Below are positions 4,490 through 46,400 of a stretch of DNA of 64,000 nt, in pieces; position 1 is the first letter of the stretch; each line of letters starts with the position of its first letter. Source of the stretch: Nanobdellota archaeon (GTDB lineage: Archaea; Nanobdellota; Nanobdellia; SCGC-AAA011-G17; UBA489); assembly GCA_030699455.1 (NCBI GenBank), contig JAUYMN010000008.1:6271-70270 (forward strand), given 5' to 3'. The notes below the pieces were generated by a model. It was given only the letters and a program-made list of their open reading frames with translations, was not told where the DNA came from and made no database searches. The position numbers and the translations under genes were made by a program.

Positions 4490-5233
4490 ATGGACACGGA
4501 AACACTAGAAAAAATTGGTTTGACTAAAAATGAGAGTATTGTATACCTAACTTTAGTTAAATCTGGAACAATAAAAACAGCAGAGATTCTCAAGAAATCG
4601 GGACTAAACTCAGGGAGAATTTATGACACCTTGGAATCGTTGAAGCATAAGGGATTAATCTCAGAATCTAATATCAATGGCGTAAAGCACTTTACTGCTT
4701 CGCCACCAAATCAATTAAAGAATTATTTTCAACAAAGATTAAACCAACTAAAACAAGAAGAACCTATAATTGAGAAAGCCATACCTCAATTAAACCTTAT
4801 CAGAAATACATCAATTGAAAGTTCAAGAGCTACAATTTACACAGGGCTAAGAGGATTAAAAACCGCTGTTGATGAAGCATTTGAAAAGGTAGGGAAAGAT
4901 GAAGAAATTTTAGCGATGGGCGTTACCTCATTAAAAGATGAAAAGATAAACCAATTTTGGGTAAATTGGTCACCAAAAAGAATAAACAAAAAACTTGTTG
5001 CAAAGCATTTGTTTTCTGAAAAAAGTGAATTCTATGACGAATTTAAGAAAATGAAATATACAGAAGCAAAATTTTTGGAAGGTATTACTCCTGTAACAGT
5101 TGATATATTTGGAACTAAAACAATTTTAATTATGAATTACAAAGAGCCAATTTCTTGCATTTTGATTCAGGACGAAAATACTGTTCAATCTTTTAGGCAA
5201 TTTTTCTATCAGTTATGGAAAATTGCAAAATAA
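4490..5233 (+). CDS. TrmB-family transcriptional regulator (paralog 1 of 3)
   Basis: N-terminal wHTH LEKIGLTKNESIVYLTLVKSG...GRIYDTLESLKHKGLI. C-terminal domain shared with ORFs 20854 and 22440. Confidence 0.8.
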   Translation: MDTETLEKIGLTKNESIVYLTLVKSGTIKTAEILKKSGLNSGRIYDTLESLKHKGLISESNINGVKHFTASPPNQLKNYFQQRLNQLKQEEPIIEKAIPQLNLIRNTSIESSRATIYTGLRGLKTAVDEAFEKVGKDEEILAMGVTSLKDEKINQFWVNWSPKRINKKLVAKHLFSEKSEFYDEFKKMKYTEAKFLEGITPVTVDIFGTKTILIMNYKEPISCILIQDENTVQSFRQFFYQLWKIAK

Positions 5234-20853: not shown

Positions 20854-21609
20854 TTAATATGGACTCTTCCAAAAATAATTGAAATATTTCATGAAACTTT
20901 CTTTAATTCTGTCAGATTCTAATACAAATGCAAAAGATTGTTTTCCCCACAAAATTTGTACTACTTTATTTCCAAAAATAATTGCTACCATGGGCACATA
21001 CATATCTTTTGGGAGTGAGCAATATTTATAGTAAGCTTTCTTGTGTTGGCTTATTTTTTCTGGTTCTAAATCTTTCAAATAAGTACCATAACTAACTAAA
21101 TCATTCATCATATGCTTTTTTTTAATTCTTCGTTCCATCCAATGTTCAAACCATACTTGTAAATTTTCAGGAACTGTTTTGTAGTTTTCAAAGCTATTTC
21201 CTCCTAACCAAAATGATTCTTTATGCTCAAGTATCTCTTCAAAAAGCGTTTTGATTGCCTCATTGCCCCTAAAAATTTCTGCCATTATTTCAGGTTTGGA
21301 GAGTTCAAAAAGTTTTTTTATGTCGGGAATTTGTTCTTCTAGTTCCTTTAATCTTTTCTCTTTTCCCTTTATTTCTTCAAGAAGCTTATTTGGGTGTGTG
21401 CATTGGTAAGTTCTCTTGCCTTTTTCAATAGTATAAGAAACAAGCCCTGCTTCTATTAATTTATTCAGAATGTCATAAATATTTCTTCGTTCTATTCCTG
21501 TTTTTTCTTGTATTTTGTTAATAGTGGATATGCCCAATTCTAGAACTGCCGAATAAACTTTGATCTGCCCATCGCTTAAACCTAATTCCTTCAGATTTTT
21601 AAGTATCAT
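20854..21609 (-). CDS. TrmB-family transcriptional regulator (paralog 2)
   Basis: MILKNLKELGLSDGQIKVYSAVLELG...RRNIYDILNKLIEAGLV. Start trimmed to 21609. Confidence 0.75.
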   Translation of the reverse strand: MILKNLKELGLSDGQIKVYSAVLELGISTINKIQEKTGIERRNIYDILNKLIEAGLVSYTIEKGKRTYQCTHPNKLLEEIKGKEKRLKELEEQIPDIKKLFELSKPEIMAEIFRGNEAIKTLFEEILEHKESFWLGGNSFENYKTVPENLQVWFEHWMERRIKKKHMMNDLVSYGTYLKDLEPEKISQHKKAYYKYCSLPKDMYVPMVAIIFGNKVVQILWGKQSFAFVLESDRIKESFMKYFNYFWKSPY

Positions 21610-21697
21610 ATGGTGTTGTATAATACCACATATATTTAAATATTTAGTCATATCAATACTATTAACAAGTAACAACAAATGTAAGGAGGTAATCAAA

Positions 21698-22147
21698 ATG
21701 AACATAAAAAAAATTTATGAAGCAGGCAAAAAAGGATTGGCGGGAATTGTTTTAGCAGGTACTCTCGCGTTAAATGGTTGTGTAGATCACCAAGAGCATA
21801 CAACTCAAGAATTGCCTTATTTTGCAGTTAAAAACATAGAAACAGTTTTGGCAATGGATCATGGAGAACGACCAAGACATGTAGAAAATGGTGTGGTTTA
21901 CACGCCAATGGTAAGATTTGACACTCAATTTCCACAATTGGAAGGAGTAAAAGCACAACAAGGAGATAAAACATACATTTTTCGGTCAAGCATGTATGAT
22001 GGACGTTTAACTGAAATAAGCAACACAGAAGGCGAAGCATATCTAAGAGTTGGAATGCTACCGGAAGAATTTAATTCCTTTAACGACGGAGTAGGAAAAG
22101 GTGCTGACACAAGCTATGCCAAGTTTATAGAAGAATTTAACAAATAA
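21698..22147 (+). CDS. lipobox lipoprotein, hypothetical
   Basis: MNIKKIYEAGKKGLAGIVLAGTLALNGC has a signal peptide and lipobox Cys. SD-like aaggagg upstream; divergent from TrmB paralog 2. Confidence 0.6.
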   Translation: MNIKKIYEAGKKGLAGIVLAGTLALNGCVDHQEHTTQELPYFAVKNIETVLAMDHGERPRHVENGVVYTPMVRFDTQFPQLEGVKAQQGDKTYIFRSSMYDGRLTEISNTEGEAYLRVGMLPEEFNSFNDGVGKGADTSYAKFIEEFNK

Positions 22148-22190: not shown

Positions 22191-22207
22191 GGGGGGGGGG
22201 GGGGGGG
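22191..22207 (+). repeat. G17 homopolymer
   Basis: 17 consecutive G in an AT-rich genome, directly after the right inverted-repeat arm 22175-22188. Confidence 0.9.
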
Positions 22208-22232: not shown

Positions 22233-22378
22233 GAATTACGCCTAACCCTTGTTATACAAGGGTGAGGAGCGAAGCGACGAAAGCGTAGCGTCCCCAAGTG
22301 AGCGAAGCGAACGCAGCGTAAGGCACAGGGACACGTTCCATCAAGTGAGCACAGCGAACCATCCAGAACAAGAATCAA
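22233..22378 (+). repeat. junction-core repeat (variant) plus GC-rich iteron block
   Basis: gaattacgcctaacccttGTTATACaagggt places GTTATAC in the loop of a 6-bp stem. Two 17-mers follow: aagtgagcgaagcgaac (22296-22312) and aagtgagcacagcgaac (22343-22359). Confidence 0.65.
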
Positions 22379-22442
22379 GGGGACACTCTCTTGATGGTGC
22401 TTACACACTTGTAACTTTTTATTGAGAAAACGGGGGCAACTA
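22379..22442 (+). repeat. left arm of 64-bp perfect inverted repeat
   Basis: Exact reverse complement of 24939-25002. Includes the TAG stop of the TrmB gene. Confidence 0.95.
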
Positions 22443-23162
22443 CAATGGCTTTGCTATACCCCACATCACATTAAAATAATTTGTAAATGCTTTAGCACTA
22501 TCTTCACTTATGATTTGTATTGTAGTAATCTCTTTCTCTTGAATGATACCAATAATAACAACATCTTCATAGATCATATAACCCACTCGTGCTATAAAAC
22601 TTTTTGGTAGAACACGAATATTATCTTTTTTCATTATTGAGAGAAGATCTTTTACTTCTGGAATATTAGGCTGCACTGTTTTCATTTTCATCTTTTTTGC
22701 TTTTTGCTCAATGAATTTTCTAGAAAATTTTAATGCTTTAAAGAAAAATAATCCCCCGCCAACCCAGTAAACATTCTTATTTGATTTTACTGCTTCTTCA
22801 ACTACTGCTTTTGCACCCTCTAATCCAACAAAAACGTTGATTTTTGGTGATTTTTCTTCTGATTCATAAAAACTTTTTAGGTTTGGAAGAGCATCATTGA
22901 GAATTTTGTTTTTTTCTTCAAGAAATATCTTAAGACTTTCTGGATTTGTGGCTTGAAAGTATTTCACTCCATTTTTTATTTTGAAATTGACAATTCCTCT
23001 GCGAAGAAGTATATTTAGGTTGTCATAGATTGTTCTTCGGTGTACTTCTGTTTCTTTAGATAATTGAACAGCAGTAGATTCTTTTTTCTTAAGAAGAGCG
23101 AGGTAAATTTTTGCTTCTGTTTCTGAAAGTCCAATTTTTCTTAGTGAGTCTTGTAAATCCAT
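22440..23162 (-). CDS. TrmB-family transcriptional regulator (paralog 3)
   Basis: LRKIGLSETEAKIYLALLKKK...HRRTIYDNLNILLRRGIV. Confidence 0.8.
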   Translation of the reverse strand: MDLQDSLRKIGLSETEAKIYLALLKKKESTAVQLSKETEVHRRTIYDNLNILLRRGIVNFKIKNGVKYFQATNPESLKIFLEEKNKILNDALPNLKSFYESEEKSPKINVFVGLEGAKAVVEEAVKSNKNVYWVGGGLFFFKALKFSRKFIEQKAKKMKMKTVQPNIPEVKDLLSIMKKDNIRVLPKSFIARVGYMIYEDVVIIGIIQEKEITTIQIISEDSAKAFTNYFNVMWGIAKPL

Positions 23163-23262
23163 TCTAACATATATTATTCTTAGTTTTATTTAAACTTTTC
23201 GTTATTGGTGTGGAAATCCCCACACATTGATTTATATTCTTAAATATGACTACTAAAGAATA

Positions 23263-23940
23263 ATGAACACCCAACTAGATAATCCATTTAGAGAAGAGCA
23301 AATTGCAGAGATTTATTCTAGGCATAGCCATAAATATCATGCTCATCAAAGAGCATTTGAAGCATTTAGGACACTTATCCCTCTAGATAGCCGAGTTTTA
23401 GAAATTGGCGTAGGCACAGGTGCTTTTACAGATTTATTGCTTTCTGTTGGATATGATGTTAAAGGTATTGATAGATCAGAAAAAATGCTGAAAAGAGCCT
23501 CTGAACGAGTTCGTGCTTTATCTGAACATTGCGATTTGTTGGATCATGATTCTTCCGGAAAATATGATGTTGTGGTTTCGCATAGTGGTGGATTTACATT
23601 CAAAAGAGGAAAATTTGAGACGTATTATCAAGATGAAGACAATTTAGAGAAAGCACTTCAAAAAGTTCATAATGTTCTTGTTGATGAAGGAAGATTTCTT
23701 GTAGATAAAGGAGAACATGAATCCGAGATAGATTTAGGAGATGGAACAATATTCTCCGTAGAACAAGAAGATAGAGAAAAATCTCGGATTTATACTTATA
23801 CTTTCAAGCAAGGAGATAGAGAGATTACGAAGCAACAAAGACGTTTAGTATTTTTTCCAGAAGAATTGCAAAGAATGAGTTCTCCGTATTTTAATTGGAA
23901 TTTTGCAAATAAACTTTGGATAATTGGTGAAAGGATATGA
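23263..23940 (+). CDS. class I SAM-dependent methyltransferase
   Basis: VLEIGVGTGAFT motif I and DVVVSH. Confidence 0.8.
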   Translation: MNTQLDNPFREEQIAEIYSRHSHKYHAHQRAFEAFRTLIPLDSRVLEIGVGTGAFTDLLLSVGYDVKGIDRSEKMLKRASERVRALSEHCDLLDHDSSGKYDVVVSHSGGFTFKRGKFETYYQDEDNLEKALQKVHNVLVDEGRFLVDKGEHESEIDLGDGTIFSVEQEDREKSRIYTYTFKQGDREITKQQRRLVFFPEELQRMSSPYFNWNFANKLWIIGERI

Positions 23941-24941
23941 TGAATCAATTAAGACAATCATTAAGAGAATTTAAGAGTGATTTTGATAGAAAAATTGTCG
24001 CATATTTTGATGCAAAAATTGGTGAACAAGCAAATCCGGAGTTGAAAGAAGTTTTTGGTCATCTGAAAGATTATGTTTTAGCAGGGGGGAAACGTCTTAG
24101 ACCGAATATTCTTTACAGAATAAATCAAGAATTCAAACAATTAGATGGAATTGATAATGTTCTTCTTGCTTTTGAGTTTCTTCATAATTCTACGTTAATT
24201 GATGATGATGTGATAGATGAACATGATACAAGAAGAAGCAGAGCAACTCTTCCAACAGTTTATGGTGATAGAAATTATAGAGGAGATTTTGCTGCTTTGT
24301 TAAGCGCTAACTTACTAAGAAATGCAGGAATTGATTTAATTGTAAATTCAGAATTATCAAGAGATTTTCAAAGAGAATGTGGGTTGGCGTATCAAGACAT
24401 AGGAAGAAGCATAGATTTAGCACAAATTCTCGATTTAGAATATAGGGGAAGATTGAATTTATTAGAAGAAGATTATATTGCTCAAGCAGATTTAGTGGCA
24501 GCAAGATTTATCGCTTATATGTTTCAACTCTGCACACCTGAAAAATACAAAGAAGAATTTTATCAAGTAGGAAGAAATTTAGGGATTGCATTTCAGTTAG
24601 CAGATGATTTAATGGATATAGATGCAACAAAGCAGAAAGGTCGTGGTCTTGGCTCAGATATTAGAGAAGGAACACCAACATTATTATCAATTTATGCTTC
24701 AGAAAGATTAGAGGGTGTAGATAGAGAAAAGTTTAGAGGATTATTTGGCAAAAAAGATTTAACAGAGGATGAATTACAATGGATTATTACTCAATATGAA
24801 AACAGTGCAGTCATAGAAGATTCAAGAGAAAGAGTTAGAGATTACATTAATAGAGCAAATCACATTTTATCAGATGTGGGAATTCCTCAAGATCATTGGA
24901 TAGTCGCATTTGGTGAGTATAGTTTACAGCGATCTCATTAG
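23937..24941 (+). CDS. polyprenyl (trans-isoprenyl) diphosphate synthase
   Basis: First DDxxD (LIDDDVID) and second DDxxD (LADDLMD). ATGA overlap with the methyltransferase gene. Confidence 0.85.
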   Translation: MMNQLRQSLREFKSDFDRKIVAYFDAKIGEQANPELKEVFGHLKDYVLAGGKRLRPNILYRINQEFKQLDGIDNVLLAFEFLHNSTLIDDDVIDEHDTRRSRATLPTVYGDRNYRGDFAALLSANLLRNAGIDLIVNSELSRDFQRECGLAYQDIGRSIDLAQILDLEYRGRLNLLEEDYIAQADLVAARFIAYMFQLCTPEKYKEEFYQVGRNLGIAFQLADDLMDIDATKQKGRGLGSDIREGTPTLLSIYASERLEGVDREKFRGLFGKKDLTEDELQWIITQYENSAVIEDSRERVRDYINRANHILSDVGIPQDHWIVAFGEYSLQRSH

Positions 24942-25002
24942 TTGCCCCCGTTTTCTCAATAAAAAGTTACAAGTGTGTAAGCACCATCAAGAGAGTGTCC
25001 CC
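24939..25002 (+). repeat. right arm of 64-bp perfect inverted repeat
   Basis: Exact reverse complement of 22379-22442. Includes the TAG stop of the prenyl synthase gene. Confidence 0.95.
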
Positions 25003-25027
25003 CATCATTTTTAGTGTCCCGAGTAAT

Positions 25028-25130
25028 ATGTCGTATAATCGCTGTTAAACTCCCCGAACGGAACGAAGTGAGGTGAAAGCGCAACGTGGTCGACCGAAGG
25101 GAGAGGTTCGGTGCTCGCCGAAAGTTTGTT
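25028..25130 (+). repeat. junction-core repeat, full unit without payload
   Basis: atgtcgtataatcgctGTTAAACtccccgaacggaacgaagtgag. ccgaac pairs with gttcgg and aaac with gttt. Ends at the next GTTATAG (25131). Confidence 0.65.
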
Positions 25131-25200
25131 GTTATAGTAGTTGTTGAAAAATATATTATTAACTTTCAAGTAGTAAAAGAAACGAAAGATTTATAAAGTA
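25117..25200 (+). repeat. cassette 5' flank repeat A, copy 1
   Basis: About 90 percent identical by eye to 30709-30792. Contains TTGTTGAAAAATA, AACGAAAGAT and the TTTATAAAG TATA box. Identity stops 3 nt after the TATA box. Confidence 0.85.
25190..25198 (+). promoter_or_regulatory. TATA box (TTTATAAAG)
   Basis: About 25 nt upstream of the ATG at 25219. Confidence 0.5.
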
Positions 25201-25218: not shown

Positions 25219-25605
25219 ATGAAAATGAATAAAACTTTAACTAGCATCGTTTTGGCAGGAGCTTTAGCTCTTAGTGGCTGTAGTGGAAAAGTCGACGATT
25301 CTAGATATGATTTCAAGGGAAAACTTGGAGATGAACAGGTAGAATTTATACGACAAGGCAATTTTTTGGTCTCCTCTGTAGATGATGGGTTATATTTAAC
25401 AGTTACAAAAGCAGATGGAAAAACTATAACTTATATCGACAGAGGAAATGATTTGAAACTAGATGAAGTAATAATCGGATACGAAGTTTATATAAATGAT
25501 GCTGTTGGACAAAACGCATTAGAATTGGCACAACAACAATTTGATGGTTATTTGACAAAAATTCTTGAATATAAACAGCAAAAAGCTGTTGATGCAATCA
25601 AGTAA
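25219..25605 (+). CDS. lipobox lipoprotein, hypothetical
   Basis: MKMNKTLTSIVLAGALALSGC has a signal peptide and lipobox. Confidence 0.6.
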   Translation: MKMNKTLTSIVLAGALALSGCSGKVDDSRYDFKGKLGDEQVEFIRQGNFLVSSVDDGLYLTVTKADGKTITYIDRGNDLKLDEVIIGYEVYINDAVGQNALELAQQQFDGYLTKILEYKQQKAVDAIK

Positions 25606-25763
25606 ATCTTTCGTTCTATAATTTTTATTTTTCAACAATTTCATTAAAATTTTGTTAGGCAAAGTTACGAAGTAATTTTGTGAAAGTTTTCTGTTATGAT
25701 TTTAACGAAGATAACAACATTAGAATTTTTGGTTTTAACCTCTGTGAGGCGAGCCCCGAATTG
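25606..25763 (+). repeat. cassette 3' flank repeat B, copy 1
   Basis: Starts immediately after the stop codon and is near-identical to 31127-31283. ATCTTTCGTT and TATTTTTCAACAA are inverted copies of elements in repeat A. Contains a degenerate core at 25693. Confidence 0.85.
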
Positions 25764-25950: not shown

Positions 25951-26163
25951 ATGAAATATAGAATAACAATGGAACAAGACGAAAAAGGCATTTATGTTGT
26001 AGAATGTCCAATTCTTCCTGGATGTATATCTGAAGGTTTAACTAGAAAGGAGGCCTTAGATAATATTAAAGATGCTATTAAAGGATATATAGACAGTCTA
26101 AAAAAGCATAATGAGCCAATACCTCTATCAATTGATGAGGAAATGGTGGAAGTAAATGCCTAA
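25951..26163 (+). CDS. hicB: HicB-family antitoxin
   Basis: 70 aa, YVVECPILPGCISEGLTRKEALDNIKDAI (UPF0150/HicB fold pattern). Overlaps the hicA start. Confidence 0.8.
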   Translation: MKYRITMEQDEKGIYVVECPILPGCISEGLTRKEALDNIKDAIKGYIDSLKKHNEPIPLSIDEEMVEVNA

Positions 26164-26385
26164 ACTTCTTTCGAATCTTTCTGGCTTAAAACTTGTAAAA
26201 TTATTTTCTAAATTAGATTATGAATAGATCATCAAACCGGCAGTCATATAATATTAAGACAGAATAAATATCCATTTAGAAGGTTAACTATACCAAAACA
26301 TAAGTCACTAGCAAAAGGCACATTAAGAGCAATTATAAAACAATCTGGACTAACAAAAGAGGAATTTTTAAAGTTTCTAACCTAA
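26156..26385 (+). pseudogene. hicA: hicA toxin, frameshifted
   Basis: MPKLLSNLSGLKLVKLFSKLDYE then TAG at 26225. The homologous remainder (GSHIILRQ...TIPKHKSLAKGTLRAIIKQSGLTKEEFLKFL) continues in the -1 frame from 26224 to 26385. Confidence 0.7.
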
Positions 26386-30614: not shown

Positions 30615-30722
30615 AATTGAATATAATTTCTGTTAGTTTCTCCGAATGAAATGAGAACGAGATTTTAGTGCAACGATGCTGAAGGCAAAAATCTCGAGTT
30701 CTGGGCTTGCCGAAAATTCGTT
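30615..30722 (+). repeat. junction-core repeat, full unit without payload
   Basis: aattgaatataatttctGTTAGTTtctccgaatgaaatgag. Stem cgagatttt (30658-30666) / aaaatctcg (30688-30696) with loop agtgcaacg... and an extrahelical ag. Right arm gcttgccgaaaattcgtt. Confidence 0.7.
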
Positions 30723-30792
30723 GTTATTGTAGTTGTTGAAAAATAAGTTATTAACTCTCAAGTGGTAAAAGAAACGAAAGATTTATAAAGTA
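30709..30792 (+). repeat. cassette 5' flank repeat A, copy 2
   Basis: Partner of 25117-25200. Confidence 0.85.
30782..30790 (+). promoter_or_regulatory. TATA box (TTTATAAAG)
   Basis: About 29 nt upstream of the ATG at 30815. Confidence 0.5.
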
Positions 30793-30814: not shown

Positions 30815-31126
30815 ATGAAACTATATCAAAAAATTGCAACATATACATTTATTGGTGCTGCAAGTTTAGGATTATTTGGTTGTGATAAAAAAGATTCACA
30901 ACGAGCAACTGAACAACCATTACCAGCTGAAATGAGAACATATGAAGTTAGCCCATATGTATTTGGTAAATCTAAAATTAATTATGACCATTTACCAAAT
31001 CTAGGATGGTCGGACATGATTGGGGTAACTTGCGGAGATTTAGATGGTGATGGAGATTTAGAAGTGATTGTTGCAACAAAAGATGGATTAACAATTTACG
31101 AAAACAGAACAGAACAAAAAAGATAA
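30815..31126 (+). CDS. lipobox lipoprotein with FG-GAP-like repeat
   Basis: IGAASLGLFGC signal and lipobox-like Cys, plus CGDLDGDGDLEVIVATKDG. Confidence 0.6.
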   Translation: MKLYQKIATYTFIGAASLGLFGCDKKDSQRATEQPLPAEMRTYEVSPYVFGKSKINYDHLPNLGWSDMIGVTCGDLDGDGDLEVIVATKDGLTIYENRTEQKR

Positions 31127-31283
31127 ATTCTTTCGTTCTATAATTTTTATTTTTCAACAATTTCTTTAAATTTTTGTTAGACAAAGTTACGAAGTAATTT
31201 TGTGAGTTTTCTTTTATGATTTTAACGAAGATAACAACATTAGAATTTTTGGTTTTAACCTCTGTGAGGTGAGCCCCGAATTG
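31127..31283 (+). repeat. cassette 3' flank repeat B, copy 2
   Basis: Partner of 25606-25763. Similarity ends at gagccccgaattg, the last recognisable array sequence. Confidence 0.85.
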
Positions 31284-31478
31284 TGTTGAACAATATATAT
31301 GCGAAGAAGCACGAATTCCTATATTTTAGACGTTATGAAGGCATTATTTGGAAGATTGAGTTAGAAAAACTGTTTTCTTTTATGTGTAGTAAAAACAACT
31401 TATTTTTGACTTTTAACCGCATTTTCTTCGATTTTTTTGAATTAAGTTTTTTTAAGAGTTTATAGTAACTGGTTTTAA

Positions 31479-32184
31479 TGGCTTTGGATGTGCTTTATAA
31501 CATGAAAAGAGAGTTGTTTAGGAGGAAGCTGTCTCCAAGAACTGTTAAAACATACCTGCTGTATGTTAGATTATTTCTTCGAGCAAATAAAGACATCAAG
31601 AAACTCGCGAATCTGCTTTAGGCTTCTTCGCAGTATTTACTACAATTCTTGATTAAATCTAACCATCAATTCTCACTTAAGTCTTTTTTATCAACCGCCA
31701 TCATAACTTTCATAAAATCATTAGGAACCAGAAGTTTATCAAACATAGATGACGTTAACTTTACAGCTGGTGAAAAGGCTTAAATAATTTTGCGGGATGG
31801 ATTGAGTACACTGAAGCGCTACAATAATGGTCTACTCAATTTTAATCTTTATGGGAGAAGAAATTCAGAATCAATACACTAGTGGGGTATGAACTTAAAA
31901 TTATTGCTAAAGGCAATGCGCCTGGAATTTGACAGGTTAATTCTACAACATATGCTCCTGACGAAATTGCAGTTTCTGCCATGAAGTATGTTTAAGATGC
32001 TATTGAAAATGATGGAGCATTAATGAGGCAGTCTGATAGAATTACTACAATAGACAGGCCTATGATTAAAATTGTTTGCTCTGATAGTTACACATTAGTG
32101 CACCCAGCAACTATTGAAGATATGTTAAAGTACAGAAGAGGGCATGGGACAATGGCAAGAAAGCTGGCTCCATCAAGACCATAA
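31479..32184 (+). pseudogene. tyrosine recombinase/integrase, heavily decayed
   Basis: N-terminal SAM-like domain signature KLSPRTVKTYLLYVRLFL, then an in-frame TAG at 31620-31622. The frame continues (FLIKSNHQFSLKSFLSTAIITFIKSLG) to a TAA at 31782. Downstream fragments in shifted frames resemble catalytic-domain blocks (LLNFNLYGRRNSES; LKIIAKGNAPG; RRGHGTMA). No ORF of 60 aa or more across 31.47-32.19 kb. Confidence 0.6.
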
Positions 32185-41208: not shown

Positions 41209-42162
41209 TTAACGAAGTAAATAGATAAGTCGAGTTATTAGTAGTCGCGGGCTGAATACCTCGTTACCTCGGTACTTACACCCCGACCCTATCAAACCTG
41301 TATTCTTCAGGTACTCTTAGTCTATTTTCGCGGCGGGTTTCGAGCTTAGATGCTTTCAGCTCTTATCCCTTGGCGCGTAGCTGCCCAGCCTGCCCTGTCG
41401 GACAACTGGTAAACCAGTGGCGCCGAACCTTTGTTCCTCTCGTACTAAAAGATCCTTCCACTCAGACTTTGACACCCCCAGTAGATATCATACAAACTGT
41501 CTCACGACGTTCTTAACCCAGCTCACGATCCGCTTTAACCGGTGAACACCCGTACCCTTGGAAGCTTCTGCACTTCCAGGATGCGAAGAGCCGACAACGA
41601 AGTAGCAAGCAGCGCCGTCGATCTGAACTCTTAGGCGCTACAACTCAATTATCCCCGAGATAGCTTTTCTGTCATACCTAGCCCTCATCAATAAGGACAT
41701 AGGGGTTCGCTAGACCAGACTTTCGTCTCTGAGTACCTTAACGGTTGGAACTCAGTTAGGCAAGCTTTTGCTCTTGCACTCTACTTTGGATTTCTAAACC
41801 AAATGAGCTTACCTTTGGGCCCCACTGATACCTTTTCAGCGGGGTGCCGCCCCAGCCAAACTACCCACCAGTCGATGTCCTCGTATACGAGTTAGTGATA
41901 CAACACAAAGAAAGTGGTATTACACGGTCGCCTACGATTAGCTCTAACGAACTAACCATCAAACAGCTCCCACTTATACTATATACTAAGTATTATACCA
42001 CAACGACAAGCTGTAGTAAAGTTCTACGGGGTCTTCGCTTCCCACTGGAGGTCACTGGCCTTCACACCAGTATAGTATATTCAGAGGACACTAGTTTGGG
42101 ACAATGGGACCCTCGTTACACCATTCATGCAAGCCGACATTCAATCGGCAGGGTATTGCGCT

Positions 42163-42855
42163 CAATTTGTTACTACATTATTTCTAATGTGACTAAACCA
42201 TTTCTGTTTAGCTCCTTACATCGCTGCAAGGATCGGACTATATCATCACTTGTTACCAAGTGTTTGGCGTGTAGTCTCTGAGGATTCTAGATATTTGAGT
42301 CGCGGTCTGCGATTCATTTTAGAAATTAGGTTTGCTATTTTATCAAGCCCTTCTTTTGTTAAGTGTTCTTTATTGTTCATCATGTGAATTACGTCAGAAA
42401 AAACTTCAAAGTTATTTTTCTTTACTGTGTGTAAAGGATATTTCTTAAAAAAAGTTATTATTTTATTTAAGTTATTTAATCCTCTAACACGAAATTCTTT
42501 TCTGTCGTTGTTGTTAATTCCAACTGAACCAAATCCAAAATAAGATTTAATCTTATGGAGAACTTGTTCACTTCTTTCATGTTGAACAACCCTAAACTCT
42601 GGAAGTACTTGCCATCCGAGTGTCATTTTTTCAAGCTTATTGATTGCTATATGAAAACAACCCTCGCCGTCAACAAATCCTGATATCCAGTTTGCATCTA
42701 GTCTTTCCTGCTGATTGTCTGCACTCACCACATTTTCACCTTTTGTTTTTGATATTAATAAACATCATTACAAATTAATCGAAGTTAATTCGAAAGGTAG
42801 TGTGAGATACTCAGATGTTCCAGCATATAGCCAAATTTTACTAAGGCAACCTTTC
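42163..42855 (-). mobile_element. group I intron at 23S position about L1931 (E. coli numbering)
   Basis: Exons rejoin as CTCTTAAGGT|AGCGCAATACC. The 5' exon ends in U and the intron ends in G. P1 forms UAAGGU with GCCUUA, with a U-G wobble at the splice site. Contains a LAGLIDADG ORF. Confidence 0.75.
42246..42731 (-). CDS. LAGLIDADG homing endonuclease (single-motif)
   Basis: 161 aa, WISGFVDGEGCF. Lies inside the rRNA intron. Confidence 0.85.
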   Translation of the reverse strand: MVSADNQQERLDANWISGFVDGEGCFHIAINKLEKMTLGWQVLPEFRVVQHERSEQVLHKIKSYFGFGSVGINNNDRKEFRVRGLNNLNKIITFFKKYPLHTVKKNNFEVFSDVIHMMNNKEHLTKEGLDKIANLISKMNRRPRLKYLESSETTRQTLGNK

Positions 42856-43670
42856 ACCTTAAGAGAATCATAGTTATTCCCGCCGTTTACCTGTCCTTAG
42901 TTCCCTTGAAAGGGAGTTTGAGATACAGGCACTGGGCAGATGTCACGTTCCATACACATCCTTGCGGACTTGCGAAACGCTACGTTTTTATTAAACAGTC
43001 GGAGCCCCTTGATCTTTGAACCCTGTATCCGCATATTAAATATACAGACGCAGGGACCCTTTATACCGAAGGTACAGGGCTAATCTGTCGAATTCCCTAA
43101 ACTAGTTTAAACCTTCATGCCTTGGCTTTCTCTGCCAGCCCACCAGTGCTGGTTCTTGGTACGGATATATATGATCCTTGCACATTCCCTTTTCACTGAT
43201 TCCAGGCCTCTACCAAACGATCCACAGAACCGCCATTCCTCCTTTAATTCGGGTCTCATCATTACGATACTCACCGAATTTATAGAAGTTAGCAAGTACG
43301 ACGATACTTGTTGGTATAGCCTAAAATGTCAGAAATATGCCTTGCGTTGCCGCGCGTACATATATAGTACAGGAATCTTAACCTGTTTCCCCTTCCCACT
43401 AGACCAATTAGGACTTGGGTTAGGACCGACTTACTCTTCGCTGACGAACATTGCGAAGAAACCCTTGGGCTTTCGGCATTACGGATTCTCACCGTATATA
43501 GATCCTACTACTACCAGGATTCTCATCCCTACACGGTCCACCAATTCTTACGAAAAGGCTTCTGCCCATGCAAGGCGCCTGCCTACCTCACTCCTTACGG
43601 AGGACTATGGTATCGGTAATCCACTTAGCCCCGTCCATTTTCAGGGCACGTGACCTTGAATGGTGAGCTG

Positions 43671-43705
<35 letters not shown>

Positions 43706-44847
43706 TACCTCCCATCTGTCTCGGGTGACATACACCTTTCGCCCTTTAACACTTAGCGGATATTTTGGGACCTTAACCATAGAGGGGGTTGTTCCCCCAT
43801 AGAGACGCAAGTTTACCCCGCGCCCCTTTTTCCCGACTTCTACGATGCCTGCACATTCGGAGTTGAACAAGTGGGCGAGGAGTTTCCTCCCCAAACCCAC
43901 AAATCCGTGGCTCTACCTCACAGGCGACCTCCGTCGAGACTAAACTAAGGCTTATTTCGGCAGGAACCAGCTATTACCGATCTCGATTGGCTTTTCACCC
44001 CTAACCAACAGTCACACGAACGCATGCACACAGCACCGCTTCGGACTTCCACAAACCGTCAGGTTCACTTCATCCTGCTGTAGGTTAGATCGACCGGTTT
44101 CGGGTAACTTCCCTGTGACTTTTGGCGCATTAACACCATGTCCCTGACAAAAAGCTGCGGACAATTGCTTTAGCTATGGGTGCGTGATGATATCACTTAC
44201 CCTTGCCACAGAAAAGAACTCCCTGGCTCGTTATTCGAAACGCACGATACAACCCCGAAAGGCCGTATCTCTCAATAACTATTAGGTTTCAGGCTCTTTT
44301 GACTCCCTGTAATGGGTTCTTTTCAACGTTCCATCACTGTACTATACTCTATCGGACTTGGGTTATATTTAGAGTTAGGAGTTGATGCCTCCCAGATTCA
44401 GACGCAATTTCCAATGCATCCTACTCAGGATACTTGTACATCTTTTGTTCTACTTCTACGGGACTATCACCCTCTATGGTACTGCTTTCCAGCAGACTTT
44501 GAATCAAACAAATAAGACTAAAAACAAGTCCTGCAACACCACATCTCTTAACCATTTCTGGTAAGATTCAGTTTGCTCTCTGCTGTGTTCAATCGCCTTT
44601 ACTGACAGCATCTCAATTGATTTCTTTTCCTCCAGGTACTGTAACGCTTTACTTCCCTGGGTGAGTTTTCCTTTCGGAATGTCATAAGACAAGAAGTCTC
44701 ATTCAGGAATCTATGGTTCAATGGCTGCATGCGCCTCGCCATAGCATTTCGTAGCTTGCCACGCCCTTCATCACTACCCAAGCCAAGTCATCCACCTAAT
44801 AGTGTAATAGGTCTATTTACTTCTTTCATACTATAATTATATGAAAA

Positions 44848-45806: not shown

Positions 45807-45938
45807 TTATTACTGCCTCCATTTAATAAATTAAGCGTAAACCTTTAGGTCAACGTTATGTTACTTATATTTTTGTTTCGTTTAAATATATTTACTGTTT
45901 TGAGTATATTTGTTAAGTTAAGAGAAAAGACATTAATA

Positions 45939-46012
45939 TGGACCCGTCGGGATTCGAACCCGAGGCCTCCTGCTTGCAAGGCAGGCGTTCTACCAGGCTG
46001 AACTACAGGCCC
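45939..46012 (-). tRNA. tRNA-Ala (anticodon UGC)
   Basis: 74-nt cloverleaf GGGCCTG/TA/GTTC-AGCCTGGTA-GAAC/G/CCTGC-CTTGCAA-GCAGG/AGGCC/TCGGG-TTCGAAT-CCCGA/CGGGTCC/A. G3:U70 identity pair present. CCA not encoded. Confidence 0.9.
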
Positions 46013-46400
46013 ATGATTAAATTAGGTCAATGTTCTATTTTTAAATCTTTATTTTTATAAAATCCCACTTAAATCTTTTCCATGGCATATTAATATCTGC
46101 CACACATTATTAATCGCATTATGGCGTTTGAAGTATATGGTCAATAACCACCGGTCACATACCAATGGCATGAATCAGTAAGTAATTAATTTTAGTTGTA
46201 CTATTCCATTTACAGCATACTTCTGTTTCATAACATAATTTCTCATAAACTCCTTATTATTTCCTATGCTATCCATGTATGTTGCTGGACTCCACAATCC
46301 GCTTCCCAAAAAATATCTTTCCTTCAGCCACTATTCAGAGACTAGTAAAAATCGAAGGAATTATAAATAAATGAAATCACGCATACCATAAAAGGGGAAG

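What the first reader, a model, noticed from the sequence alone, without database searches (positions are those of the whole stretch)
22379..25002. Perfect 64-bp inverted repeat enclosing a TrmB regulator, methyltransferase and prenyl diphosphate synthase module
22379-22442 is the exact reverse complement of 24939-25002.

The repeat includes the TAG stop codons of the two outward-facing terminal genes, TrmB on the minus strand and the prenyl synthase on the plus strand. Both genes therefore share an identical 62-nt 3' flank.

Zero mismatches over 64 bp in a region that is otherwise decaying (hicA and the recombinase are pseudogenes) implies one of two things:
- very recent formation, or
- ongoing homogenisation or inversion.

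The 2.5-kb segment could be invertible. It also places isoprenoid-modifying chemistry (prenyl synthase plus SAM methyltransferase, ATGA-coupled) on a mobile-looking cassette under a private regulator.
Basis: seen in the sequence. Interest (0 to 1): 0.65.

Follow-up and report, generated by a model that had tools for sequence, protein, structure and literature searches.

The report
Homogenised inverted repeat around archaeal prenyl module
A three-gene isoprenoid module in an uncultured Nanoarchaeota genome sits between an old pair of imperfect inverted repeats that in this genome were recently overwritten into a perfect 64-bp pair, and in one relative the module between the repeats has flipped; this is a clean archaeal example of a well-known kind of repeat-driven rearrangement.

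Summary
22379-22442 is the exact reverse complement of 24939-25002, each arm starts at a TAG stop codon, and no such match occurs in shuffled sequence. An independent Logan assembly breaks exactly k-1 bases into the right arm, so the repeat is in the reads.

Seven related loci carry the same TrmB(-)/methyltransferase(+)/prenyl synthase(+) triad between two different arms:
- a short arm of about 40 nt behind TrmB
- a long arm of 64 nt behind the synthase

The two arms share only a 14-nt inner core (TAGTTGCCCCCGTT) and a 12-nt outer core (GAGAGTGTCCCC).

The window keeps the short-arm flank but carries a copy of its own long arm. This means a recent non-reciprocal conversion, bounded by the two cores, created the perfect repeat.

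In locus L018 the genes are inverted relative to arms and flanks, with breakpoints in the inner cores.

No recombinase is linked to the module, the arms are not transposon ends, and they are not attC sites. Their function is unknown, although they are more conserved than third codon positions.

Verdict: a real feature and a new member of a known kind. A side lead is that the module lies among repeated dif-like sites next to a decayed tyrosine recombinase.

The parts
22379..22442 (.). Left arm: a long-type (L) arm copy, identical to the right arm, sitting next to a short-arm-type flank. It contains the outer core at 22379-22390 and the inner core at 22429-22442, which includes the TrmB stop codon.
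24939..25002 (.). Right arm: the L-type arm in its ancestral position behind the prenyl synthase. It contains the inner core at 24939-24952 (including the TAG stop) and the outer core at 24991-25002. It is the likely donor of the conversion.
22440..23162 (-). TrmB-family wHTH regulator (240 aa), 87-95% identical to its counterparts in the relatives.
23163..23262 (.). Divergent promoter region. It holds an invariant palindrome, GTGTGG-N6-CCACAC, at 23208-23225 (a candidate operator) between two conserved TATA-like boxes.
23263..23940 (+). Class I SAM-dependent methyltransferase (225 aa) of unknown substrate, translationally coupled (ATGA) to the synthase.
23937..24941 (+). Diverged trans-polyprenyl diphosphate synthase (334 aa). 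Both DDxxD motifs are present. The best solved relatives are archaeal GGPP synthases.
22252..22378 (+). Short-arm-type flank (the GC-rich body of a dispersed unit). It is orthologous to the flank that follows the short arm in L022, L023 and L018.
25003..25055 (+). Long-arm-type flank. It begins with a conserved CAT (an ATG on the opposite strand) and ends in a degenerate dif-like head at 25028-25055.
22235..22262 (+). Degenerate dif-like head (ATTACGCCTAA-CCCTTG-TTATACAAGGG). Homology to L022 and L023 begins at its right arm.
31478..31621 (+). N-terminal remnant of a decayed tyrosine recombinase. It is the only recombinase trace near the module.

Best explanation
The TrmB / methyltransferase / prenyl synthase module of this Nanoarchaeota clade is flanked by an old, imperfect pair of inverted repeats that start at the two stop codons.

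The ancestral arms differ. A short arm of about 40 nt lies behind TrmB and a 64-nt long arm lies behind the synthase. They share only a 14-nt inner core and a 12-nt outer core.

In the lineage of this window, a recent non-reciprocal event copied the right (long) arm over the left (short) arm. The event was either gene conversion between the arms or a replication template switch, and its end points lie in the two cores. This produced the perfect 64-bp repeat.

Recombination between the same arms has also inverted the gene block at least once in a related lineage (L018), with the crossover in the inner cores.

Shown: the arm types, the replacement and the inversion. Inferred: that general recombination or replication did this rather than a dedicated invertase, and that the now perfect arms make the 2.5-kb block more prone to flip.

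The module has its own divergent promoter region, so flipping is not expected to switch it on or off.
For: - **Repeat is real.** It is perfect, beyond chance and present in the reads.
- **Triad is conserved with two arm classes.** The triad occurs in L007, L018, L019/L020, L021, L022 and L023. The arm alignment shows two classes sharing TAGTTGCCCCCGTT and GAGAGTGTCCCC.
- **Conversion.** L022 and L023 are the closest relatives (PS 86-87% aa). They have short arm plus the same flank at TrmB, and long arm plus the same flank at PS. The window has that short-arm flank joined to a long arm.
- **Inversion.** For L018 against L019, L007, L022 and the window, the inner block is collinear. The two arm-plus-flank blocks (57-155 nt) match inverted and on swapped sides. 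The alignments switch inside the 14-nt inner core at both ends.
- **No linked recombinase.** No recombinase is conserved next to the module in six loci. The cores show no dyad symmetry by inspection of the sequences. The arms do not fold.
- **Arms are constrained, hence old and maintained.** They are 86-95% identical in the five closer relatives (71% in L021), against 73-81% at third codon positions.
Against: - No read-level data are available, so present-day flipping and the frequency of the converted allele are unknown.
- Only one inverted relative was found, among seven loci.
- The near-invariance of the two cores could also mean that they are protein-binding or recombination sites.
- A 14-nt core is short for RadA-type homologous recombination.
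- Logan contig L001 also breaks inside TrmB at 22713 for an unknown reason. This might reflect strain variants.
Confidence: 0.7

Rival explanations
1. Programmed invertible segment. The conserved inner and outer cores are sites for an unlinked site-specific recombinase, which flips the module as a switch.
For: The cores are almost invariant in all loci. Both the inversion breakpoints and the conversion end points fall in the cores. The arms are more conserved than third codon positions in the five closer relatives.
Against: - No recombinase gene is conserved near the module. There is only a decayed remnant 6.5 kb away in the window and a Y1 transposase 5 kb away in L007.
- The cores lack the dyad symmetry of invertase or tyrosine-recombinase sites (sequences).
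- The module carries its own conserved divergent promoter and operator, so orientation should not gate expression.
- Breakpoints must fall in the cores anyway, because they are the only sequence the two arms share.
Confidence: 0.1
2. The 64-bp arms are the terminal inverted repeats of a non-autonomous transposon that carries the three genes as cargo.
For: The neighbours of the module differ in every genome. No flanking gene of L007, L018, L019 or L021 has a homologue in the window. For L007, L019 and L021, nucleotide homology to the window ends near the arms.
Against: - In L018 the arms stayed with the flanks while the genes flipped.
- There is no target-site duplication.
- The arms occur only at the module ends, plus one solo copy in L003.
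- There are no hits in viral, plasmid or phage collections.
- There is no transposase.
- The immediate flanks outside the arms are themselves conserved among genomes.
Confidence: 0.04
3. The module is one cassette in an array of small gene modules separated by directly repeated dif-like (Xer-type) sites. Mobility and the changing neighbours come from recombination at those sites, not at the 64-bp arms. This is compatible with the best explanation for the arms.
For: - Seven heads of the form ATTGNANNTAA-NNNCTG-TTANNNTCTCC, all on the + strand, lie between 5.5 and 30.6 kb. The search gave 9 matches against 1.8 expected, and none of 100 shuffles reached 9.
- The left arm of the heads is 9-10/11 identical to the left arm of the P. 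abyssi dif site in six of the seven heads (8/11 in the seventh). That site is given in PMC2958812.
- Degenerate heads bracket the module, and homology to L022 and L023 starts and stops at them.
- The array ends at a decayed tyrosine recombinase.
- The gene content (HicBA, PIN, secreted lipoproteins) resembles that of cassette arrays (PMC9668308).
Against: - Whole-site similarity to dif is only 14-18/28, which is near chance for this AT-rich window.
- The palindromy of the heads is weak.
- Some relatives have 13-14-nt spacers.
- In L018 against L019, homology starts after the right arm, not in the spacer.
- The heads could instead be promoter or operator elements.
- No intact recombinase is in view.
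Confidence: 0.2
4. Assembly artefact: a chimeric join or a collapsed repeat created the perfect inverted repeat.
For: The G17 run at 22191-22207 lies 170 nt from the left arm, and a Logan contig ends exactly there. The sequence is a metagenome-assembled genome.
Against: - The independent Logan contig stops exactly k-1 into the arm.
- Both arms sit at positions orthologous to arms in seven other assemblies.
- The junction of short-arm flank to long arm shares only 12 nt with any alternative path, too short for a k-mer misjoin.
Confidence: 0.03

Closest known systems
Inverted-repeat-mediated inversion with arm homogenisation by gene conversion (human Y palindromes, PMC3723533; yeast chromosome XIV flip/flop region, PMC9731477; plastid inverted repeats)
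   Same: Two inverted arms flank a gene block. The arms are kept or made identical by non-reciprocal transfer. The orientation of the block differs between lineages, with breakpoints inside the arms.
   Different: The arms here are tiny (40-64 nt, with 12-14-nt shared cores) and non-coding, and they start exactly at two stop codons. The organism is a DPANN archaeon. The conversion replaced a heterologous 14-nt-flanked middle segment rather than correcting point differences.
Quasipalindrome correction by replication template switching (bacterial mutagenesis literature; own knowledge, not checked here)
   Same: An imperfect inverted repeat becomes perfect in one step, with a patch bounded by the already complementary segments.
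   Different: Classical cases have arms a few bases to tens of bases apart. Here they are 2.5 kb apart.
Site-specific invertible segments (Hin/Gin/Fim-type switches, 'invertons')
   Same: A DNA block sits between short inverted repeats and is found in both orientations.
   Different: There is no adjacent invertase, no dyad-symmetric sites, and no promoter or coding sequence that the flip would reconnect.
Chromosomal inversions in Thermococcales driven by the pTN3 integrase or by homologous recombination between integrated elements (PMC5495485, PMC8371274)
   Same: These are archaeal inversions between short identical segments. A tyrosine recombinase can act on identical DNA as short as 104 bp.
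   Different: Those inversions are large-scale and use repeats of 104 bp or more. No such integrase is seen here.
Acinetobacter dif modules (PMC6449649, PMC13141974) and archaeal integron cassette arrays (PMC9668308)
   Same: Small modules, often toxin-antitoxin or secreted proteins, are separated by repeated recombinase-type sites, and the modules are found in changing contexts.
   Different: The heads here are all in direct orientation, whereas pdif sites alternate. No attC-like hairpin is present. The resemblance to dif is weak overall. There is no intact recombinase, and the locus is a chromosome of a Nanoarchaeota MAG.

Membership tests
Inverted-repeat-mediated recombination (inversion plus arm conversion) | Two copies in inverted orientation flanking a unique segment | tested here: met
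Inverted-repeat-mediated recombination (inversion plus arm conversion) | Arms more alike within the genome than orthologous arms are between genomes (concerted change) | tested here: met
   The window arms are 100% identical. The orthologous left arm in L022 and L023 is a different, short type in the same flank.
Inverted-repeat-mediated recombination (inversion plus arm conversion) | Alternative orientation of the enclosed segment, with breakpoints inside the arms | tested here: met
   L018 against L019, L007, L022 and the window
Inverted-repeat-mediated recombination (inversion plus arm conversion) | Both orientations present within one population | not testable with these tools
   No read access. 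The Logan unitig break is uninformative about orientation.
Site-specific invertible switch (inverton) | Recombinase gene adjacent to, or inside, the invertible segment | tested here: not met
   There is none in six loci. The only traces are a decayed remnant at 31478 and a Y1 transposase 5 kb away in L007.
Site-specific invertible switch (inverton) | Inversion reconnects a promoter or coding segment | tested here: not met
   The arms lie 3' of both terminal genes. A conserved internal divergent promoter and operator is present.
TIR-bounded transposon / MITE | Target-site duplication flanking the terminal repeats | tested here: not met
   The flanks AAGAATCAA and CATCATTTT are unrelated.
TIR-bounded transposon / MITE | Terminal repeats travel with the cargo, and there are multiple copies | tested here: not met
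   The arms stay with the flanks in L018. The arms occur only at module ends plus one solo copy.
Integron gene cassette (attC) | attC site: an imperfect hairpin of 57-141 nt with R''/L''...L'/R' boxes at the cassette 3' end | tested here: not met
   The inter-module regions and the arm region fold no better than shuffles, with z from -0.7 to +1.1. The arms have z of -0.3 and -0.5. IntegronFinder/HattCI was not available.
Xer/dif-type site modules | 11-bp inverted arms around a 6-bp spacer, resembling a validated dif site | tested here: inconclusive
   The 11-6-11 layout fits. [quoted passage not shown] The whole site matches only 14-18/28 and palindromy is weak.
Xer/dif-type site modules | Cognate tyrosine recombinase present and active | not tested
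   Only a decayed N-terminal fragment is seen in the window. The rest of the genome was not available.
trans-Polyprenyl diphosphate synthase (PF00348) | Pfam domain above the gathering score, and two DDxxD motifs | tested here: met
   119.6 bits against a cut-off of 27. DDVID and DDLMD are visible in the translation. All NCBIfam equivalog cut-offs are missed, so chain length is unassigned.
Prenyl-diphosphate C-methyltransferases (GPP/IPP methyltransferases) | Sequence relationship to the solved GPP methyltransferases | tested here: not met
   None is named among the PDB hits at E<=0.01. The hits are generic class I methyltransferases matching mainly the N-terminal SAM-binding region.

The most novel reading that the evidence does not exclude
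The 20.7-31.3 kb stretch is an archaeal chromosomal cassette array. Small modules are delimited by directly repeated Xer/dif-like sites next to a now-dead tyrosine recombinase. The modules include the repeat-flanked TrmB-MT-prenyl synthase block, toxin-antitoxin pairs and secreted lipoproteins. This would be a DPANN counterpart of Acinetobacter dif modules or of integron cassettes, and it would explain why the module has different neighbours in every genome.
Probability: 0.17. Interest if true: 0.75.

Novelty: new member of a known kind. Interest (0 to 1): 0.4.

Why it matters
It gives a sequence-resolved example, in an uncultured DPANN archaeon, of two things: how very short shared cores (12-14 nt) allow both inversion and non-reciprocal homogenisation of flanking repeats, and how a perfect repeat can arise in one step from an old imperfect pair.

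In practice, the 64-bp perfect repeat makes the orientation of 22443-24938 ambiguous in short-read graphs, and it is a candidate site of population-level flip-flop.

The arms are more conserved than third codon positions in the five closer relatives, yet they have no recognisable function. They and the neighbouring dif-like repeat units are small, testable targets for DNA-protein work in a group with almost no genetics.

Tried and rejected
**Arms as structured RNA or terminators.** Folding z-scores were -0.3 and -0.5. The arms themselves gave no terminator-like hit and no Rfam hit, even at E<=10.

**Arms as dispersed repeats.**
- The outer 26-mer gave 0 hits in GTDB genomes.
- Both arm halves gave 0 hits in viral contigs.
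- A 22-mer gave one hit in JGI metagenomes, L003.

**Module on a plasmid or virus.** There was no match in the plasmid or phage collections, and none in viral contigs using TrmB as the query.

**Extended degenerate repeat beyond 64 bp.** None was found.

**A GGGRCAMCT sub-motif array.** My pattern was mis-specified and the count was not above chance. G5/C5 runs are not rare in the window.

**attC-like hairpins between modules.** Not present.

**Replication origin (ORB-like G-strings).** Considered from memory and dropped. There is no dyad element, no AT-rich unwinding region between the arms, and no orc1/cdc6 nearby.

**TrmBL2-like identity of the regulator.** Only generic wHTH and TrmB hits were found in the PDB.

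**Literature.** I found no paper on SRR13727534, and nothing on DPANN inversions or archaeal dif-like modules.

**Limits.** Structure prediction of the methyltransferase was not run, because a class I fold match would not name a substrate.
Full report
**Observation**

Window 22379-22442 is the exact reverse complement of 24939-25002. A search with up to three mismatches finds only these two copies, and none in 100 dinucleotide shuffles. Local alignment shows no extension on either side.

The arms begin with the stop codons of two outward-facing genes:
- a TrmB-family regulator at 22440-23162(-)
- a polyprenyl synthase at 23937-24941(+)

Between them lies a class I SAM methyltransferase at 23263-23940(+), coupled to the synthase by an ATGA overlap.

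The window is archaeal, with archaeal RNase P RNA and LSU rRNA, and has about 33% GC. The synthase is 100% identical to a protein of an NCBI 'Nanoarchaeota archaeon' MAG.

**Not an artefact**

A Logan contig from run SRR13727534 (L001) is identical to window 22713-24968. It stops exactly 30 nt into the right arm. With k=31 (my knowledge of Logan), that is where a unitig must stop if the arm's first 31-mer is reached from two different sequences. So both gene-to-arm junctions exist in the reads.

**Comparative anatomy**

Close homologues of the synthase led to seven further loci with the same triad:

| Locus |
|---|
| L007 |
| L018 |
| L019/L020 |
| L021 |
| L022 |
| L023 |

Reading outward from the two stop codons and aligning the results gives two arm classes:
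- The long arm (64 nt, like the window's) is followed by a flank beginning CAT.
- The short arm (about 40 nt, TAGTTGCCCCCGTTAATGATGTGTTAATGAGAGTGTCCCC) is followed by TTGATTCTTGTTCTGGATGG...

The two classes share only an inner core, TAGTTGCCCCCGTT, and an outer core, GAGAGTGTCCCC. These cores are nearly invariant and occur only at the module ends.

In L007, L019/L020, L021, L022 and L023 the short arm is at TrmB and the long arm is at the synthase.

**How the perfect repeat arose**

The window's left flank is the short-arm flank and matches that flank in L018 at 96% over 57 nt; it also resembles the L022 and L023 flanks over more than 100 nt by eye in the sequences. But the arm attached to it is the long type, and it is identical to the window's own right arm.

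The closest relatives, L022 and L023 (synthase 86-87% aa), still have the short arm there. So the short arm was recently overwritten by a copy of the right arm. The replaced tract is bounded by the two cores, the only sequence the arms share.

Reciprocal inversions at the cores can only swap arms. They cannot make two long arms. The event was therefore non-reciprocal: either gene conversion or a replication template switch.

**Inversion**

In L018 the long arm and its flank sit at TrmB, and the short arm and its flank sit at the synthase. BLAST of L018 against L019, L007, L022 and the window shows three things:
- The inner block is collinear.
- Both arm-plus-flank blocks (57-155 nt) are inverted and swapped.
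- The alignments overlap by exactly the 14-nt inner core at both ends.

L018 is a k=141 assembly (from the record name), so a misjoin at 14 nt is implausible. The arms stayed with the flanks while the genes flipped, which argues against the arms being transposon ends.

**Mechanism and alternatives**

No recombinase is conserved near the module. The window has only a decayed tyrosine-recombinase N-terminus at 31478-31621. The cores lack dyad symmetry.

The module has its own strongly conserved divergent promoter region with an invariant palindrome, GTGTGG-N6-CCACAC, whose spacer varies. A flip should therefore not switch expression.

I favour general recombination or replication error at short homology over a programmed switch.

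The arms do seem constrained. They are 86-95% identical to the window in the five closer relatives (71% in L021), compared with 73-81% at third codon positions. They do not fold and match no Rfam family.

A conserved ATG just outside the long arm opens a micro-ORF, M(M)GDTLLMVLTHL, with mostly synonymous changes. In L003 it runs, through one stop codon, into a TrmB C-terminal-domain remnant. I regard this as unexplained.

**Genes**

The synthase is a diverged trans-prenyl synthase. Its nearest solved relatives are archaeal GGPP synthases, and it falls below all NCBIfam equivalog cut-offs.

The methyltransferase is generic. It is truncated or lost in L018 and L004, so a fixed methylated-isoprenoid pathway is unproven.

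**Context**

None of the genes flanking the module in L007, L018, L019 or L021 has a homologue in the window.

The immediate flanks belong to a dispersed unit family. Its heads have the form ATTGNANNTAA-NNNCTG-TTANNNTCTCC and occur seven times, all on the + strand, between 5.5 and 30.6 kb. The pattern search gave 9 matches where 1.8 are expected by chance. Degenerate copies bracket the module.

The left arm of the heads is 9-10/11 identical to the left arm of the P. abyssi dif site (PMC2958812) in six of the seven heads. The whole site matches only 14-18/28, which is near chance for this window. There is no attC-like hairpin.

Two unrelated lipoprotein genes share 89-95% identical upstream and downstream scaffolds. 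Together with HicBA, a PIN protein and the dead recombinase, this looks like a cassette array, but that remains a lead.

**Verdict**

The 'mobile cassette bounded by the repeat' reading is not supported. The feature is a new archaeal member of the known class of inverted-repeat-mediated conversion and inversion.

Noticed in passing
window 5574, 20735, 25760, 25841, 26400, 30157, 30616 (28-nt heads, + strand); degenerate heads at 22235 and 25028; also in L003, L007, L018, L019: A dispersed intergenic unit family. Each unit has a dif-like head (ATTGNANNTAA-NNNCTG-TTANNNTCTCC) followed by a GC-rich body. The body has hairpins that appear to show compensatory changes when the copies are compared by eye: GAGATTTT/AAAATCTC, CTAAAATTT/AAATTTTAG and TTGAATTTT/AAAATTCAA. 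There is no Rfam match and no attC-like fold. The units may be Xer-type sites, a MITE/REP-like element or a shared promoter module.
   Followed up: partly
window 25106-25200 ~ 30698-30792 and 25604-25763 ~ 31126-31283: Two unrelated lipoprotein genes (25219-25605 and 30815-31126) sit in upstream and downstream scaffolds that are 89-95% identical, as if coding sequences had been exchanged within a conserved cassette frame. L003 has the same upstream scaffold in front of yet another gene.
   Followed up: partly
window 22191-22207: A run of 17 G in a 33% GC genome, 170 nt left of the left arm. An independent Logan contig (L002) ends exactly at the end of the run. This suggests length heterogeneity or a sequencing or assembly weak point.
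   Followed up: partly
window 25003-24965 (minus strand) and the equivalent positions in L003, L007, L018, L019, L022, L023: A conserved ATG just outside the long arm opens a micro-ORF, M(M)GDTLLMVLTHL, that reads inward. Substitutions among the loci are mostly synonymous. In L003 the frame continues, through one stop codon, into a TrmB C-terminal-domain remnant.
   Followed up: partly
window 23208-23225: An invariant palindrome, GTGTGG-N6-CCACAC, with a variable spacer, lies between two conserved TATA-like boxes in the TrmB/MT intergenic region of all seven loci. It is probably the operator of the TrmB-like regulator.
   Followed up: partly
window 31478-~32000 (+): A heavily decayed tyrosine recombinase (weak Phage_int_SAM_4 hit, many stop codons) lies at the right end of the repeat-unit array. 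The hicA gene at about 26160-26385 is also disrupted.
   Followed up: partly
window 41218-44819 (-), 45938-46013 (-): The LSU rRNA match spans 3602 nt against a 2987-nt model, and GC drops to 0.38 at 42-43 kb, which suggests an insertion or intron. tRNA-Ala lies upstream, but there is no SSU rRNA in the window, so the rRNA genes appear unlinked.
   Followed up: no
window 4490-5233 (+), 20854-21705 (-), 22440-23162 (-): Three TrmB-like paralogues lie within 19 kb, each with a dispersed unit at its 3' side.
   Followed up: no
L001 left end = window 22713: The Logan contig carrying the module also breaks inside the TrmB gene, at a 16-nt palindrome (AATTTTCTAGAAAATT). That is too short to explain a k=31 break, so there may be strain variation in the TrmB 3' half.
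   Followed up: no
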